Assembly (NCBI GenBank): GCA_001938485.1
Contig: MQRK01214000.1
Coordinates: forward strand, 1 to 49,158
Length of the DNA: 49,158 nt
Reading direction: 5' to 3'
Source of the DNA: Girardia tigrina
Taxonomy: Eukaryota
Of the stretch, positions 13,301-30,482 are shown in pieces; within the stretch, counting starts at the first letter, position 1, and each line of letters opens with the position of its first letter. Made by a program: the position numbers.

Positions 13301-16300
13301 CAAAAAAAAAGTTAAAATAATTAATAGAATTTTATTTTTAAATTTAAATATTATTTCTTATATTTTTTAATATTTTTCGAAACATCTAAGCTAATCAAAT
13401 ATTGGAAGAATATTGAGGGGGGTCAAGAAATGAGCAGATGGATTTTAGTAATATATAATAAAGCTTTTAAATAAATTAAAAAAAATAATTAAGGTTAGTC
13501 GTAATAAATGATGTAGTAATTTTAAAATTGCGACAGATTATTTTGAACTAAAATAATAAGTAAAAGTATGTCTATCTGAAGTTTTATAAATGTACAAAAA
13601 AATCGAATTTCCAGAAATTAATATTTTTTAGTTAGTTTTATAATCTAGAATTAAAATGATAAATTTGAAGAAGTTAATAAAATGTATTGGACGCTAATTG
13701 TATTATTAATATAATAATAATAATTATTATTATTGTTATTAATAATAATAATATTATTTTTATTATTTTAAATTATAATCTTATAAAAAATGAAATAAAG
13801 CTAATCTTACAGCATCAATTAAAAAATCTTTTATAGATTTATGAGTATCATATGTAAAGATCAGTAACAATAGTAGTATGTACATTTTGTATTGGAATGC
13901 AGATAATAGGCACAAAGTTAAGATAAAATTTCAGCAAATAATAATGTAACCCGAATTCTAGATTTAAAATTGTGGATTGATTTGAAACATGTAAAACAAA
14001 ATTTATTTTTACCGGAAATTTTGTATGTAGAAATATGTGCTGTAGATCCGTATATTGAAAAACTTTGTTTTTTAAAGACCGATTTTTGATAACCAAAGAA
14101 ACATTAAATCTTCGTGACAACACAAATTTATACAAAGAATGTTCATCTAGACAAGACGCCTCGGAGACAGAGAGGGGGTTGTTTTTATATGTACCCCAAA
14201 GAAAACTACCATAATAGTTATAATACTAAGTGTTTTTTTATTTTATTTTTTTTTCAAATTTTTTTAAGAAATACATAAAACTATAGTTTCGGAAAATCCG
14301 GAAGAACATAATTTTAAATAAAAATAGTTTTATATGCTGTAAAATACAGTATGTGAGAAGTGGTTGTAACATCAATATTAGAATTAATTTTTAACTCAAA
14401 ATTTATTTATTATTATTAGGTTCGTGATTAAAATTGGAAGTCATAATTTTGTAAACTTTATTTCTACTACAATTTTCATTATTGAAACAAATTTATGAGG
14501 AACAATATTTCATAATCCAGATCTAAAAATTTTAAATATAAATAATAATATCGATGTATAAATATATATATACTAGTAAATCACCCGTCATGTATGACGG
14601 GTATAATTTATATTGAGTTAAATCTCAAATAAATTTTCAAGACGTATAATTCATATAACAGCCAAAATATTCAGTGTTTTTTTTATATTAAATTAATGTA
14701 AATTATTGAAAAAACTCAATCTAGAATGAAAAAACTTTGCTTTAAACATAAATAAGTTTAAATTTTTAATAAAAAAAATAACACGAACTTACCGTAACAA
14801 AATTCTGAATTGATTTGAAGTGAAATTGCACAAATAAAAAACAAAAAATCAAGTTCAACTTTGATTTACTCATACTAATGTAATTTTAATTCCTCAATAA
14901 AGGAGAAAACTCTTCACACTATGAGAAAATATTTCTTCACTAACACTACATTAAAGAATTGAATAAATTTTTACTGTCTGTTAAGAGAAGACGAAATACA
15001 ATTTAAAATTCATTTTTTCCATATGAATTTTATTATTAATTTAATTATCTACTTACAATTGTAAGTAAATAATATAAGCGTTCCTCACAGAATCAGTCAG
15101 TCAGTCAGTCACGGATCAAGAAAAATATATATATATATCTTTGTTATTTTCTTCAATTTTGCATAAATCTTATTTTGTTTCTGTTTTATTAATTTTTTTA
15201 CAATGTTTATAAATTTAGATCTTTAGAAATATTTTAATGGACATATCCTGTAAAAAATTAAATTCCTAAATAATTTTCTTTAATTTTAAATCATTCCATT
15301 TTAAATTATTTTTTAATAAAACTTTCCGTATACAATAAACATTCTAATTTTATTTTAAATAGTGTTACAAAATATATCAAAATCTTCTTTACAATATTCT
15401 TTAACTTCGAAGATGATATTTCAATTGTGAATTTTTAAAACTTAATTTTTATAAAAATTTGTCTCAATATAATTAAAATATTATCATTACTCTAAAATTT
15501 TTACAAAACTTATTTCATTTTAATTAGTGATATACTATCTGTGAAATATAATTTTTACAAAACTTATTTGAATTTAATTGGTAGAAATATTACCTATAAA
15601 ATATATATTTTATAAAATCTTATTTATTTTAATTAGTAAAAAATATTATCTATAAACTTAAATTTTTTATTTAAAAAATTATTTCATTTTAATTAGTCGA
15701 ACATTATTTTTAATTTATCTAAAATATAAATATGATTTTAATTTGAAAATATCAAAAATTTAATGTTCACCAAAAGGAACCCCAGCAATTATAAAACAAT
15801 TTTCAAACAAATTGTTCAATTATTTCTTTAATTCATAATTAATCCGCCGATCTCTATTTTCAAATAATTTTTAAATTATCTCAAATTGCAATCAAAATAA
15901 TATTTAATGTTAAAACATATTTATGAAAATTAATAATTCACGTATATTTAGTTTTTTATGGAAATATTTATTTTTTTAATTTGTTGTTTATTTTAACCTT
16001 TTATAATGTTTTTAAAATTTTGTTTTTTAAATGAAATATTATATTCTGTTTTCTTTTAATTTAGCATTTTTTTATAAAAAATACATGTAATTTATTTTTA
16101 GTATTTTTAAATTTTTTGAAAATACTTTTTATTTAATATTCAATTGATTATGTTTAAAATATTTACTTTTTAATTTTATCCTTAATTTATTTTAAAAATT
16201 TTAATAAAATTCAAATAAAATGATTATTTTTTAAAATACTGTTCTATCTGTTTTCTGTTTTAATCCATCCATTTTTTACTAAAATAATATTTGTAAAATA

Positions 16301-19300
16301 ATATTGAATTATATTTCAAAATCTCAAATAATATTCTAATATTTCAAAATAATATTTTATACAGAATATTTTCAAATTCAAAGTTAAAATACTTATTTAT
16401 CATTTAATTTTTAAAATTTTCAGTTTGATTTCAATTCAAAACAATTTTTAAAACCATTTAAATTTTGATCAGCGAACTTAATTAATTACCTCCTCATACA
16501 GTAATTGTCTAAAAATTTTACTACAATAATTTGAATTAGTTTTATTCAAATTTTAGTTTTTTGAAAATGTTTTTATTTTAAATTAATATATTAATTAAAA
16601 AATAAGATAAATAAATATTTTAATTTTCTGAGAAATTATTTGGATCACTCTTATTAATTTTACCGACAAATATTATTTACATATAAATACATCATTATGT
16701 AAATTAAATGAAAAATATAATTTTATCCAATCAATTTCTATTTAAATAAAAAATATTTTATAAATTTTTCCATTTACTTGATTTATTAATATTATTTCAT
16801 AAACAACATTTTATTAATAATTTAATCAAAAATGACAAACTCTATTTCTAGCAAGTCAGAATATATGGACACAACGTCCAACAATAAATCCATTTCTGAA
16901 GACTCTTTAACTAAACGATACCTTAACATATTTTACCAAAACAATTATTCCAGCAATTATAATTCTTTATCAAAAAATAATATGACGATGTATTCAACCA
17001 CAACCAACAATAACATAAATCAACAATGTTTTTTGAACAGTTCTCAAAACAATCAAAATTATCCTTCAGATTATCAATGCCGACCAAAAGGAAGACCGAA
17101 AAGAAACATTGATCTTAATAAAACTAAAAAAAGAGAAACTGGTCGTAAAAGAGGACGTCCAAGAACTTGTATACCGAAAAAAGACTTTCCACATACGAAT
17201 GAAGAAATACTCGAATTTGTTAAGAAACTATCTGAATATACGGACGAAATGATAAAGAAAAAAGAAAATTCTAAAGAATCATTTTCTGAAGCTCCTCAAA
17301 ATACATTACATCAAGAAAATGAAGAAATACTCGAATTTGTTAAGAAACTCTCTGAATATACGGACGTAACGATAAATAAAAAAGAAAGTTCTAAAGAATC
17401 TTTTTCTGAAGCTCCTCAAAATACATTACATCAAGAAAATAATATAACAATAAATAAAAAAGAAAATTTTAAAGAATCTTTTTCTGAAGTTCCTCAAAAT
17501 ACATTACATCAAGAAAATAATTTAAACAATAGTATAACTAATATTATAAAAGAGCCTGAAATTATTTTAAGTAATAATGAAGACAAATGTGACAACAATT
17601 TAGAAGATTCATCTAGTAAAGAAATTTGTTCTAAAGAAAATAATGACTCTCAAATTTCTTTTGACGACCTCCAAAACTTGTATTCTCAATTGTTTTCTCA
17701 TCATTCGAAAAATGACTCTAATTTCCTGTTAGAATTTCAAAGCAATCCAAAAAGAAGACCAAAAAAATCTGTTGATCCAAATAATTCTCAAAAAAAAGTT
17801 CCTCGTTGCGGACGTCCAAAAAAGTACCAAATGAATAAAAATTAATAAACCCAAAATCCCAAAAAAATATAGTTATTAAAAATAAAATGTACTTGCAAAA
17901 ATATTATTTTTATATAACATTTATAAAATTTATTTGATAGCAAATAAAATATTATTATTCATATAAAATATGTATTACTTTATGATTTAGAGGCGTAAAT
18001 ACAAATTCATTTTTTTGCCAAGAATTTTTAATATTATATTTATTATTGAAAAAATTTAAAAAACTAAAAAAAACAACTGATTTTTTTGTTAAAAAATAAA
18101 CAAAAATATTAAAATCTTTAAAAAAAAAGAAAAAAACTTTTTGAGAGCTCTATATTTAGTACAAAATAAAAAGAAATAATAAAAAAATAAGTAATTAATT
18201 AGAAAAATATTTATTAAAAACATTTTCTATTATTTCAACAAAATTATTGAAAGAAATTTTAAATATTTATTTAATGTTGTGAAGAATATTTTTTATTTAT
18301 GAACGCTTGTAATATTATTATATAAATTTGGAATTGTGATTCTTCTACCAATTGGGAAATTGTTATTTTATTGAACTGACCAAATACGATTTGTATTATT
18401 TAAAGTTAAGAAAGTAATTAATTAATTAACCCGATAAAATTTTAACTATTACAAAATAAAGATTAAAATTAAAATTTTAAATCTAAATAATACTAAAACT
18501 GATTTCGTTAGGGTTCCGAAAAAATACATGTGAACACTTTTGATAAAATTTTATAAAGGAAAATTTTTAAATAATTCTTTTAGTAAAATTATTAATTTCA
18601 AACAAAATAATATTTAGTTTAACAANNNNNNNNNNNNNNNNNNNNNNNNNNNNNNNNNNNNNNNNNNNNNNNNNNNNNNNNNNNNNNNNNNNNNNNNNNN
18701 NNNNNNNNNNNNNNNNNNNNNNNNNNNNNNNNNNNNNNNNNNNNNNNNNNNNNNNNNNNNNNNNNNNNNNNNNNNNNNNNNNNNNNNNNNNNNNNNNNNN
18801 NNNNNNNGAGTTATTATTAATATTTACTTTACACTTTTCAAACTTGAACAAAACCTGTAGTATCCTCTATTGGAAAACAAGGTTTATAGAAGAGTTCTAA
18901 GTTTAAATCAAAGCATCGTTCGTTTTAGGAGATTCACAGTTTTTACTGTAATCTGTTAACTCGCACGAAATATTGATTGTATTTGTATTCTGTCATTAAA
19001 GAATTGAATTATTATTATTATTTGTGACTTGTTGATATTTGTTATTNNNNNNNNNNNNNNNNNNNNNNNNNNNNNNNNNNNNNNNNNNNNNNNNNNNNNN
19101 NNNNNNNNNNNNNNNNNNNNNNNNNNNNNNNNNNNNNNNNNNNNNNNNNNNNNNNNNNNNNNNNNNNNNNNNNNNNNNNNNNNNNNNNNNNNNNNNNNNN
19201 NNNNNTTGATTAAGGAATTAAGAAAAGAGATTTACGATTAAAGATAAAGATTTAAGATTTGTGTTTTTAAAAGTGAATAATTGAATTAAAGATAAATTTT

Positions 19301-30443: not shown

Positions 30444-30482
<39 letters not shown>

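What the first reader, a model, noticed from the sequence alone, without database searches (positions are those of the whole stretch)
15140..30446. ~15-kb inverted duplication carrying two convergent orphan AT-hook genes, with coding regions more similar than their flanks
Seen: ~16715-18243 (+) and ~28210-29720 (-) are inverted copies. A second inverted pair (15140-15320 / 30258-30446) lies further out, each arm ending at a (TA)n run. The first ~160 codons and ~90 bp upstream of the ATG differ at only a few positions, while the 3' flanks and outer arms carry many substitutions and indels. Inference: an older inverted duplication whose genes are kept alike by arm-to-arm gene conversion and/or strong selection. 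An alternative is a large foldback-type element whose arms encode its own DNA-binding protein.
[Added by the scan's program, not by the reader: the finding's places include an assembly gap (unread letters, written N; its length is only estimated) at 18626 to 18807, 19047 to 19205. Whether the letters on both sides are continuous or in frame is not known: test that first.]
Basis: partly seen in the sequence, partly recalled or inferred. Interest (0 to 1): 0.75.

Follow-up and report, generated by a model that had tools for sequence, protein, structure and literature searches.

The report
Inverted orphan gene pair homogenised by conversion
Two copies of a small flatworm-specific gene with AT-hook DNA-binding motifs face each other about 10 kb apart, and their coding cores look recently copied one onto the other, a well-known process called gene conversion.

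Summary
The repeat is real but is not a 15-kb duplication. About 1.54 kb is duplicated in inverted orientation (A 16710-18246 +, B 29727-28207 -). Three small upstream blocks are also shared (Y about 190 bp, X about 70-90 bp, W about 46 bp and marginal). X and Y lie in a different order in the two arms. The roughly 10-kb middle is unique, holds retroelement debris and contains both N gaps. Each unit carries an intact ORF (337 and 339 aa) with three GRP AT-hook cores. The ORF has no credible homologue among 1.84 billion representatives. The window comes from a planarian.

Divergence is 4/170 (2.4%) at synonymous sites and 1/87 in the non-coding upstream core. In the flanks inside the same unit it is 26/219 to 46/419 (11-12%), with p = 3e-4 to 1.4e-3. 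dN/dS is about 0.5 and not distinguishable from 1. This favours non-allelic gene conversion over selection. The foldback-element reading gains no support.

The gaps lie between the arms, so the arms' orientation and distance rest on scaffolding. This is a new example of a known phenomenon.

The parts
15125..15138 (.). (TA)7 run directly preceding block Y in arm A
   Evidence: Regex; alignment.
15139..15328 (+). Block Y, arm A copy (short shared non-coding block)
   Evidence: Pairs with 30464-30249 at 85.4% over 219 columns. Score 108 against a shuffle maximum of 18.
15498..15701 (.). 55-nt tandem array (3.6 copies), present in arm A only
   Evidence: TRF. No counterpart in arm B.
16500..16592 (+). 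Block X, arm A copy; lies between Y and the gene here
   Evidence: 77.8% over 126 columns. Core 16525-16591 is 88% identical, score 43 against a shuffle maximum of 18. Alignment.
16662..16707 (+). Block W, arm A copy (marginal)
   Evidence: 83% over 47 columns, score 20 against a shuffle maximum of 18.
16710..18246 (+). Duplicated gene unit G, arm A
   Evidence: Global alignment, segment identities. Homology ends at both sides.
16745..16831 (+). Non-coding upstream core inside the near-identical tract (1 mismatch in 87 nt)
   Evidence: The adjacent 16710-16744 has 7 mismatches in 35 nt.
16832..17845 (+). ORF A, 337 aa. GRP AT-hook cores at aa 87, 108 and 327; an RRP variant at aa 308
   Evidence: Longest stop-free run in 300 shuffles is at most 138 codons, against 339 observed.
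17198..17531 (+). In-frame coding tandem repeats in A (120 nt x2, then a 78-nt unit lacking the first 42 nt). This zone interrupts the near-identity
   Evidence: TRF; unit alignment.
17849..18246 (+). Diverged 3' flank of unit A (39/353 mismatches, 8 indel events)
18626..18807 (.). Assembly gap 1, between the arms and outside the repeat
19047..19205 (.). Assembly gap 2. The 239-nt island 18808-19046 between the gaps matches nothing else in the window
18247..28206 (.). Unique spacer (about 9.96 kb as written, of which 341 are N) with degenerate retroelement pieces. On + : protease-like 21667-21966, integrase zinc-domain-like 22323-22466, integrase core 22470-22886. On - : gag-like with CCHC knuckle 23140-23975
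   Evidence: Pfam: rve is above its cut-off, the others are below. No arm-to-arm homology.
28207..29727 (-). Duplicated gene unit G, arm B
28585..29604 (-). ORF B, 339 aa. GRP cores at aa 87, 108 and 331; 105-nt coding repeats at 28906-29164
29806..29852 (-). Block W, arm B copy (marginal), separated from G by about 77 bp found only in B
29853..30248 (-). About 0.4 kb found only in B, less AT-rich by eye, between Y and W; nature unknown
   Evidence: Sequence read. No match elsewhere in the window. No Rfam family.
30249..30446 (-). Block Y, arm B copy
30447..30478 (.). (AT)16 run between X and Y in arm B
   Evidence: TRF.
30473..30562 (-). Block X, arm B copy; lies outside Y here

Best explanation
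A planarian genome segment carries two paralogous copies of a lineage-restricted gene read here as a single exon. The gene encodes a low-complexity protein with three AT-hook cores and an in-frame helical repeat. On the scaffold the copies lie tail to tail about 10.7 kb apart.

Inferred history:
1. An older DNA-level duplication of at least about 1.75 kb (X-W-G) produced the two copies. Its age corresponds to about 11-12% neutral divergence.
2. Each arm then gained its own insertions and deletions. The spacer filled with transposon debris.
3. More recently, non-allelic (arm-to-arm) gene conversion copied the promoter-proximal and coding core (A about 16745-17826) from one copy onto the other. 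That reset silent and non-coding divergence there to about 1-2.4%.
4. The tract is broken at the internal coding repeats, which each copy has remodelled by unequal exchange. It stops where flank divergence and indels leave too little identity for heteroduplex formation.

Shown: the duplication, its boundaries, the divergence contrast, the intact ORFs, and the lack of homologues.
Inferred: conversion as the cause, the order of events, that the ORFs are expressed, and that the motifs bind AT-rich DNA.
For: - Real, bounded repeat: unit G is 89.1% identical over 1593 columns. Identity drops to 49-53% outside it. Homology does not resume on the inner side. On the outer side only Y, X and W resume (10 shuffles, maximum score 18).
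- Divergence contrast inside one duplicated unit: CDS 16832-17372 has 3/541 mismatches and CDS 17473-17826 has 7/354. The 5' edge has 7/66 and the 3' flank 39/353.
- Synonymous sites differ at 4/169.5, flanks at 46/419 (Fisher p = 2.8e-4). Against strictly masked flanks (26/219) p = 4e-4.
- The non-coding upstream core has 1/87 mismatches, p = 0.0014 against the masked flanks. It sits directly beside 35 nt with 7 mismatches and has similar AT-richness.
- The longest identical run is 399 nt (16777-17175), with 87 differences across the 1537-nt unit. None of 20000 permutations reached that run.
- Selection on the protein does not explain it: pN/pS = 0.52, Fisher p = 0.28, and differences fall 3/5/5 by codon position.
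- Both ORFs are intact and all coding indels are in frame. The observed ORF is 339 codons against at most 138 in 300 shuffles.
- Precedents: in Drosophila Amy paralogues, concerted evolution is confined to the coding sequence while the flanks evolve independently, and ectopic conversion lowers dS (PMC3924832, passages). Palindrome arms undergo arm-to-arm conversion (PMC3403216, passages).
- Somatic allelic gene conversion is reported in Schmidtea mediterranea (bioRxiv 10.1101/2023.03.20.533553, abstract only).
Against: - Only two sequences and no outgroup. The classical proof (paralogues within a species closer than orthologues between species, or shared polymorphisms) could not be made.
- The tract nearly coincides with the CDS (from -87 nt of the ATG to about 20 nt before the stop). 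Constraint would predict the same pattern.
- Synonymous counts are small (4 differences).
- The flanks are only 13.6-14.4% GC against 27.5-28.3% in the CDS. They may mutate or misalign more, although the strict mask did not lower their divergence.
- Two N gaps lie between the arms, so the inverted, neighbouring arrangement is a scaffold statement.
- Expression of either ORF is unshown. No transcript-derived homologue was found in the protein sets.
- The different order of X and Y in the two arms is not explained by this model without extra events.
Confidence: 0.62

Rival explanations
1. No conversion took place. The copies are as old as their flanks, and the CDS plus proximal promoter stay alike through purifying selection alone.
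For: The near-identical stretch almost coincides with the promoter-proximal region plus the CDS. Both ORFs are intact and all coding indels are in frame.
Against: Synonymous sites (4/169.5) are about 4.6-fold less diverged than the flanks (p = 2.8e-4 to 4e-4). pN/pS is 0.52 and not different from 1, and there is no third-position excess (3/5/5). A 399-nt run without a single difference includes about 115 codons' worth of silent sites.
Confidence: 0.07
2. Rate heterogeneity or alignment artefact. The duplication is young throughout, and the extremely AT-rich, low-complexity flanks simply mutate, slip or misalign faster than the CDS.
For: The flanks are 13.6-14.4% GC, rich in homopolymers, and carry 8 indel events in about 400 nt.
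Against: After removing columns within 5 nt of a gap and all homopolymers of 5 or more, flank divergence is still 26/219 = 11.9%. The equally AT-rich upstream core 16745-16831 has 1/87 mismatches, next to 7/35 in 16710-16744. Blocks Y (85%) and X (78-88%) show the same older divergence level.
Confidence: 0.08
3. Assembly or scaffolding artefact. One version: the two copies are real but are not inverted neighbours, because a contig was misplaced or flipped across the two gaps. Another version: they are diverged haplotypes of one locus. A third: the core identity was exaggerated by repeat collapse.
For: Two N gaps (18626-18807, 19047-19205) with a 239-nt island lie between the arms, 380 bp from arm A's inner boundary. 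Continuity cannot be verified.
Against: - Homology stops inside contiguous sequence on all four sides.
- The genes flanking the arms differ: NHE lies left of A and a MULE transposase lies right of B.
- The X/Y order differs and each arm has private insertions. This is not expected of alleles.
- Thirteen substitutions and a differently built repeat zone remain inside the core, so the core was not simply pasted twice.
- Collapse only affects sequences that are already near-identical (inference).
Confidence: 0.12
4. A large foldback-type or composite mobile element (15140-30446), bounded by TA runs, whose arms encode its own AT-hook DNA-binding protein.
For: The inverted blocks Y start directly after (TA)n runs at both outer ends. 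The genes face inward in inverted arms. The surroundings are transposon-rich.
Against: - Block X lies inside the would-be element in arm A but outside it in arm B, so Y is not a collinear terminus.
- Only arm A has a subrepeat array.
- The centre is unrelated degenerate retroelement debris on both strands.
- The 49-kb window has no third copy of G, Y or X.
- The ORF has no transposase-like or any other homologue.
- (TA)n runs are common across the window, so their presence at both ends is weak evidence.
Confidence: 0.04

Closest known systems
Concerted evolution of closely linked paralogues by ectopic gene conversion confined to the coding region (Drosophila Amy duplicates; Hsp70 pairs)
   Same: Two linked paralogues have a CDS far more alike than the flanks, and silent sites are homogenised. 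PMC3924832 (passages read) states for Amy that concerted evolution is confined to the coding sequence while the flanking regions evolve independently. The same pattern is seen here.
   Different: No between-species or polymorphism evidence is available here. The gene is an orphan of unknown function rather than a conserved enzyme or chaperone. pN/pS of about 0.5 suggests weak constraint. That Amy and Hsp70Aa/Ab are inverted pairs is my recollection, not from a call.
Sex-chromosome-type palindromes with arm-to-arm gene conversion
   Same: Inverted repeats are separated by a non-duplicated spacer, with conversion between the arms (PMC3403216, passages).
   Different: Those arms span tens to hundreds of kb, are more than 99.9% identical along their whole length, and are much longer than the spacer. 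Here the arms are about 1.5 kb, their identity is mosaic (89-99.4%), and the spacer (about 10 kb) is several times longer than an arm.
Foldback (FB-type) transposable elements
   Same: Inverted arms, an AT-rich setting, and TA runs at the outer ends.
   Different: The arms are not collinear at their ends. No shared subrepeat arrays and no evidence of multiple copies were found. The FB features listed are recalled from general knowledge, not from a call.
HMGA-type AT-hook proteins
   Same: Three GRP cores are embedded in K/R-rich context, 5-6 basic residues within 15 aa. The protein is predicted to be largely non-globular (mean pLDDT 39.4).
   Different: No sequence homology to any protein family was found. 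The protein is about three times longer than HMGA, with an N/S-rich N-terminus and a 35-40-aa helical tandem repeat between the hooks. The Pfam AT_hook model did not report a match. The motif definition and HMGA size are recalled.

Membership tests
Paralogues under non-allelic (ectopic) gene conversion | Two paralogous copies in one genome | tested here: met
   Units 16710-18246 and 29727-28207 have different flanks, private indels and 87 differences. Caveat: two scaffold gaps lie between them.
Paralogues under non-allelic (ectopic) gene conversion | Silent or non-coding divergence inside the tract significantly below that of co-duplicated flanks | tested here: met
   Synonymous 4/169.5 against flanks 46/419 (p = 2.8e-4). 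Against strict flanks 26/219, p = 4e-4. Upstream core 1/87, p = 0.0014.
Paralogues under non-allelic (ectopic) gene conversion | Non-random clustering of differences (a long identical fragment) | tested here: met
   A 399-nt identical run; 0 of 20000 permutations of the 87 differences over 1537 nt reach it.
Paralogues under non-allelic (ectopic) gene conversion | Paralogues within a species closer than orthologues between species, or shared polymorphisms | not testable with these tools
Large palindrome (sex-chromosome type) | Long arms, near-identical over their whole length, longer than the spacer | tested here: not met
   The arms are about 1.5 kb with 89-99.4% mosaic identity. The spacer is about 9.96 kb.
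Foldback-type transposable element | Collinear terminal inverted arms | tested here: not met
   Arm A reads (TA)7-Y-...-X-W-G. Arm B reads X-(AT)16-Y-...-W-G.
Foldback-type transposable element | Arms built of tandem subrepeats | tested here: not met
   The only non-coding array between the TA runs and the gene units, the 55-nt array at 15498-15701, is in arm A alone.
Foldback-type transposable element | Multiple genomic copies, empty sites and target-site duplications | not testable with these tools
   The window has no third copy. The rest of the genome is not available. The TA runs at both ends are ambiguous, because (TA)n is common in the window.
AT-hook proteins | GRP (R-G-R-P type) core flanked by basic residues, usually in several copies | tested here: met
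   GRP at aa 87, 108 and 327 (A) or 331 (B), with 5-6 K/R in each 15-aa context; an RRP variant at aa 308 (A) or 312 (B). The motif definition is recalled.
AT-hook proteins | Match to a curated AT-hook model | tested here: not met
   No AT_hook row appears in Pfam even at E<=10. HMMER filters often drop such short motifs, so this is weak evidence.
AT-hook proteins | Binding to the minor groove of AT-rich DNA | not testable with these tools
   Needs a binding assay.
HMGA family | Sequence homology to HMGA | tested here: not met
   There is no HMGA or any other credible hit.

The most novel reading that the evidence does not exclude
The convergent, near-identical inverted genes may act as more than a gene pair. 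Read-through or convergent transcription across the locus would give long double-stranded or hairpin RNA with a stem of about 1 kb at 98-99% identity. The locus would then be a small-RNA source that regulates its own fast-evolving AT-hook gene, comparable to hairpin-RNA loci described in flies (recalled). Conversion would keep the arms complementary. Nothing here tests transcription, and the 10-kb transposon-filled spacer makes a hairpin transcript unlikely.
Probability: 0.04. Interest if true: 0.55.

Novelty: new member of a known kind. Interest (0 to 1): 0.25.

Why it matters
This is a clean small-scale example, in a flatworm genome, of coding-core homogenisation between inverted paralogues. 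It warns that dS would date this duplication about five-fold too young. It also gives a concrete locus for asking whether non-allelic conversion operates in planarians, where allelic somatic conversion has been proposed (abstract).

The gene itself is an unstudied orphan with AT-hook motifs in a genome that is about 70-80% AT. If it is expressed, it could be a lineage-specific chromatin protein.

None of this would surprise a specialist in gene duplication.

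Tried and rejected
- The first self-BLAST used lax scoring. It was swamped by 57-62% AT-rich pseudo-matches and was discarded in favour of stricter scoring.
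- The first shuffle-controlled local search timed out. It was rerun with word size 9 and 10 shuffles.
- Homologue searches:
  - Word-indexed search, near lengths: 0 of 2209 candidates.
  - Exhaustive phmmer over 1.84 billion representatives: 2 hits, E = 6.3e-6 and 3.1e-4.
  - I rejected both hits. They match only query residues 141-266, repeat against repeat (8 and 5 stretches), at 23-38% identity, and miss the AT-hooks and the N-terminus.
  - The 'longer' and 'shorter' modes of the word-indexed search were not run, because the exhaustive search has no length limit.
- ESM Atlas: no usable hit.
- Pfam at E<=0.01 and at E<=10: only sub-threshold chance rows.
- AlphaFold2 on the two-sequence alignment gave mean pLDDT 39.4 and pTM 0.18. 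The model is too poor for a fold search, so none was run.
- Rfam at gathering thresholds over 14000-32000 found 0 families. ARAGORN over the whole window found 0 tRNAs.
- Retroposition as the origin of the unit was considered and set aside. By eye, neither 3' boundary carries a poly(A) tract. The shared blocks X and W lie upstream of the unit, which points to DNA-level duplication.
- Haplotig origin was rejected (see rival explanations).
- Spacer ORFs: 31 of the 64 ORFs of at least 45 aa listed were scanned, 9 and 22. Six of the 64 are N-run artefacts.
  - Only the integrase core (rve) passed its cut-off.
  - Protease-like, CCHC and Integrase_H2C2 rows were below their cut-offs.
- Not checked:
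  - Genome-wide copies and empty sites.
  - Supplements of the cited papers were not seen.
  - The species was not determined beyond 'planarian', and no attempt was made to trace the record.

Full report
**What the window is.** The 49,158-nt window is very AT-rich, with GC of 16-35% in 2-kb windows. It holds three N runs: 3869-4319, 18626-18807 and 19047-19205.

It is eukaryotic and transposon-rich. Pfam finds the following:
- a Na+/H+ exchanger in a single 678-aa ORF at 10872-12908 (-), E = 7.7e-49;
- a MULE transposase domain at 32239-32913 (+);
- mariner-type transposase pieces, for example 47561-48079 (-);
- TSP1-like repeats at 45174-45575 (+);
- retroelement pieces.

The exchanger ORF is 74% identical to a Schmidtea mediterranea protein and 78% identical to an unnamed one. 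Every other animal hit listed is at most 36% identical. So the window comes from a triclad planarian.

**The gaps, tested first as instructed.** Both gaps inside the finding lie between the two arms. The first starts 380 nt beyond the inner end of arm A's homology (18246) and 780 nt beyond ORF A's stop.
- The letters on the two sides of each gap do not overlap.
- The 239-nt island between the gaps matches nothing else in the window.
- Every reading frame has at least one stop within 120 nt of each gap edge.

So the gaps interrupt neither gene nor the repeat. Continuity across them cannot be shown, and the relative orientation and distance of the arms is a scaffold statement.

- Strict self-BLAST pairs 16700-18246 (+) with 29737-28207 (-) at 89.1% over 1593 columns.
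- It pairs 15125-15328 with 30464-30249 at 85.4% over 219 columns.
- The repeat finder gives ungapped arms of 710 nt at 96% and 412 nt at 94%.
- A global alignment shows sharp boundaries. Identity is 49% and 53% just outside the unit, which is background for this composition.
- Each outer block begins right after a TA run: 15125-15138, and (AT)16 at 30447-30478.
- The ORFs are 16832-17845 (+, 337 aa) and 29604-28585 (-, 339 aa). They are convergent and 95% identical as proteins.

**What is overstated.** The structure is not a 15-kb duplication. I ran shuffle-controlled sensitive searches of the outer sides (A 14000-16840 against B 32500-29600; 10 shuffles, maximum score 18). Only four blocks passed:
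- Y, score 108;
- X, A 16525-16591 / B 30539-30473, score 43;
- W, A 16662-16707 / B 29852-29806, score 20, which is marginal;
- the gene unit G.

On the inner sides nothing resumes beyond 18243 / 28210, including the island and 19206-22500.

The blocks are not collinear. Arm A reads (TA)7-Y-[~1.17 kb, with a private 55-nt array]-X-[~70 bp]-W-G. Arm B reads X-(AT)16-Y-[~0.4 kb private]-W-[~77 bp private]-G. So Y is not the outer end of a continuous arm.

Two readings fit this. Y may be a short repeat that landed independently at TA-rich sites near both copies. Alternatively, the ancestral segment held two X-like copies that the arms lost differentially. I could not decide between these readings.

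G, Y and X each occur exactly twice in the window.

**The spacer.** The spacer is about 9.96 kb as written, including 341 N. It holds degenerate retroelement pieces on both strands:
- protease-like 21667-21966 (+), below cut-off;
- Integrase_H2C2-like 22323-22466 (+), below cut-off;
- integrase core 22470-22886 (+), E = 7.3e-10, above cut-off;
- gag-like with a CCHC knuckle 23140-23975 (-), just below cut-off.

A 49-56-nt inverted pair at 24451-24506 / 27412-27466, 90-91% identical, encloses about 3 kb. The arms may therefore once have been closer (inference).

**The genes.**
- Each ORF has GRP cores at aa 87, 108 and 327 (A) or 331 (B), with 5-6 K/R in the surrounding 15 aa. An RRP variant sits at aa 308 (A) or 312 (B).
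- By the recalled motif rule these are AT-hooks. Pfam reports no AT_hook match even at E<=10, which is weak evidence for so short a motif.
- Between the hooks lies an in-frame tandem repeat: 120 nt x2 plus a truncated unit in A, and 120 nt followed by two 105-nt units in B.
- A stop-free run of 339 codons compares with at most 138 in 300 shuffles.
- CDS GC is 27.5-28.3% against 13.6-14.4% in the flanks.
- All coding indels are in frame.
- AlphaFold2 gives no confident fold: mean pLDDT 39.4, with helices over the repeat units.

The orphan status holds:
- 0 of 2209 word-sharing candidates scored E<=1e-3.
- The exhaustive phmmer search of 1.84 billion representatives gave two hits. Both are repeat-on-repeat matches over residues 141-266 only.
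- The Atlas gave nothing usable.

Expression is untested.

Inside the single duplicated unit, divergence is strongly heterogeneous:

| Segment | Coordinates (A) | Mismatches |
|---|---|---|
| 5' edge | 16710-16775 | 7/66 |
| Proximal upstream | 16776-16831 | 1/56 |
| CDS, first part | 16832-17372 | 3/541 |
| CDS, second part | 17473-17826 | 7/354 |
| 3' flank | 17849-18246 | 39/353, plus 8 indel events |

Nei-Gojobori counting over 301 ungapped codons gives Sd = 4 over S = 169.5 (2.4%) and Nd = 9 over N = 733.5 (1.2%).
- Synonymous sites are 4.6-fold less diverged than the flanks (46/419, p = 2.8e-4).
- With columns near gaps and homopolymers of 5 or more removed, the flanks still differ at 26/219 = 11.9% (p = 4e-4).
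- The non-coding 87 nt before the ATG have 1 mismatch (p = 0.0014 against the flanks). They sit directly beside 35 nt with 7 mismatches.
- The longest identical run is 399 nt. None of 20000 permutations of the 87 differences reaches it.
- pN/pS is 0.52 and not distinguishable from 1 (p = 0.28). Differences fall 3/5/5 over the codon positions.

So protein-level selection does not explain the likeness, and composition-driven rate differences are unlikely to. Homogenisation of the core by non-allelic gene conversion is the best reading.

The break in identity falls in the coding repeats.
- A_r1 and B_r1 are identical.
- B_r2 and B_r3 share a 15-nt deletion.
- A_r3 lacks 42 nt.

This points to independent unequal exchange in each copy. 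The two halves of the core differ somewhat in divergence (0.6% against 2.0%), which may mean two conversion events (inference).

**Comparison with what is known.**
- The pattern matches the classical Drosophila Amy case. There concerted evolution is confined to the coding sequence while the flanks evolve independently, and ectopic conversion biases dS downward (PMC3924832, passages).
- It works like palindrome arm-to-arm conversion (PMC3403216, passages). It fails that family's defining features of long, uniformly near-identical arms that exceed the spacer.
- It fails the testable foldback-element features (collinear termini, shared subrepeats).
- Somatic allelic conversion has been proposed in S. 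mediterranea (bioRxiv 10.1101/2023.03.20.533553, abstract only).
- A full-text search for planarian plus AT-hook returned 4 papers. By their titles and abstracts none is about such a gene.
- A search for planarian, genome and gene conversion found 41 papers, of which 8 were listed. I saw none on paralogue conversion among those listed.

**Verdict.** Strong selection and the foldback reading are not supported. This is an ordinary though tidy case of a known process acting on an orphan gene. The main caveats are the two scaffold gaps between the arms and the lack of an outgroup.

Noticed in passing
window 24451-24506 and 27412-27466: A 49-56-nt inverted pair at 90-91% encloses about 3 kb of the spacer. 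It may be the terminal inverted repeats of a decayed DNA transposon. The enclosed ORF 26051-26281 (-) looked mariner-HTH-like by eye but had no Pfam hit.
   Followed up: partly
window 26950-27100 and 31259-31417: An inverted pair of about 150 nt at about 76% identity brackets arm B, 1.1 kb inside and 0.7 kb outside it. No counterpart exists near arm A. It may be two copies of a short repeat.
   Followed up: partly
window 29853-30248: A block of about 0.4 kb private to arm B, between Y and W, looks less AT-rich than its surroundings by eye. It has no match elsewhere in the window and no Rfam family. Its nature is unknown.
   Followed up: partly
window 21220-21269 and 22937-22986: A relatively GC-rich 50-nt inverted pair (82%) brackets the protease-integrase fragment of the retroelement debris.
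   Followed up: no
window 10872-12908 (-): A Na+/H+ exchanger sits in one uninterrupted 678-aa ORF. It is 74% identical to a Schmidtea mediterranea protein and 78% identical to an unnamed one. It is either a paralogue or comes from a related planarian species.
   Followed up: partly
window 35581-35954: A tandem duplication of about 188 nt at 97.9% identity.
   Followed up: no
window 4320-4360, 35138-35187, 36460-36509, 37891-37923, 39239-39273, 40525-40583: (TA)n microsatellites recur through the window, and one directly abuts the first N gap. A TA run at a repeat end is therefore weak evidence on its own.
   Followed up: no
window 1476-1536 / 8440-8500; 6708-6766 / 8459-8401; 5958-6015 / 7714-7771: Short repeats of 58-61 nt at 88-100% identity surround the ORFs at 7258-7945 (-), which looked mariner-like by eye (one of them was scanned, with no Pfam hit). 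They may be transposon ends.
   Followed up: no
window 31596-32913 (+): A MULE transposase domain (E = 2.7e-13) lies in an ORF chain just outside arm B.
   Followed up: no
protein P0121 (unnamed representative) against ORF A residues 141-232: A 921-aa protein with about 75-aa tandem repeats shares a short 'SF..(A/V)P..TLH.EN'-like stretch with the ORF's repeat unit, at 28-38% identity. I judged this repeat-inflated chance and did not pursue it.
   Followed up: partly
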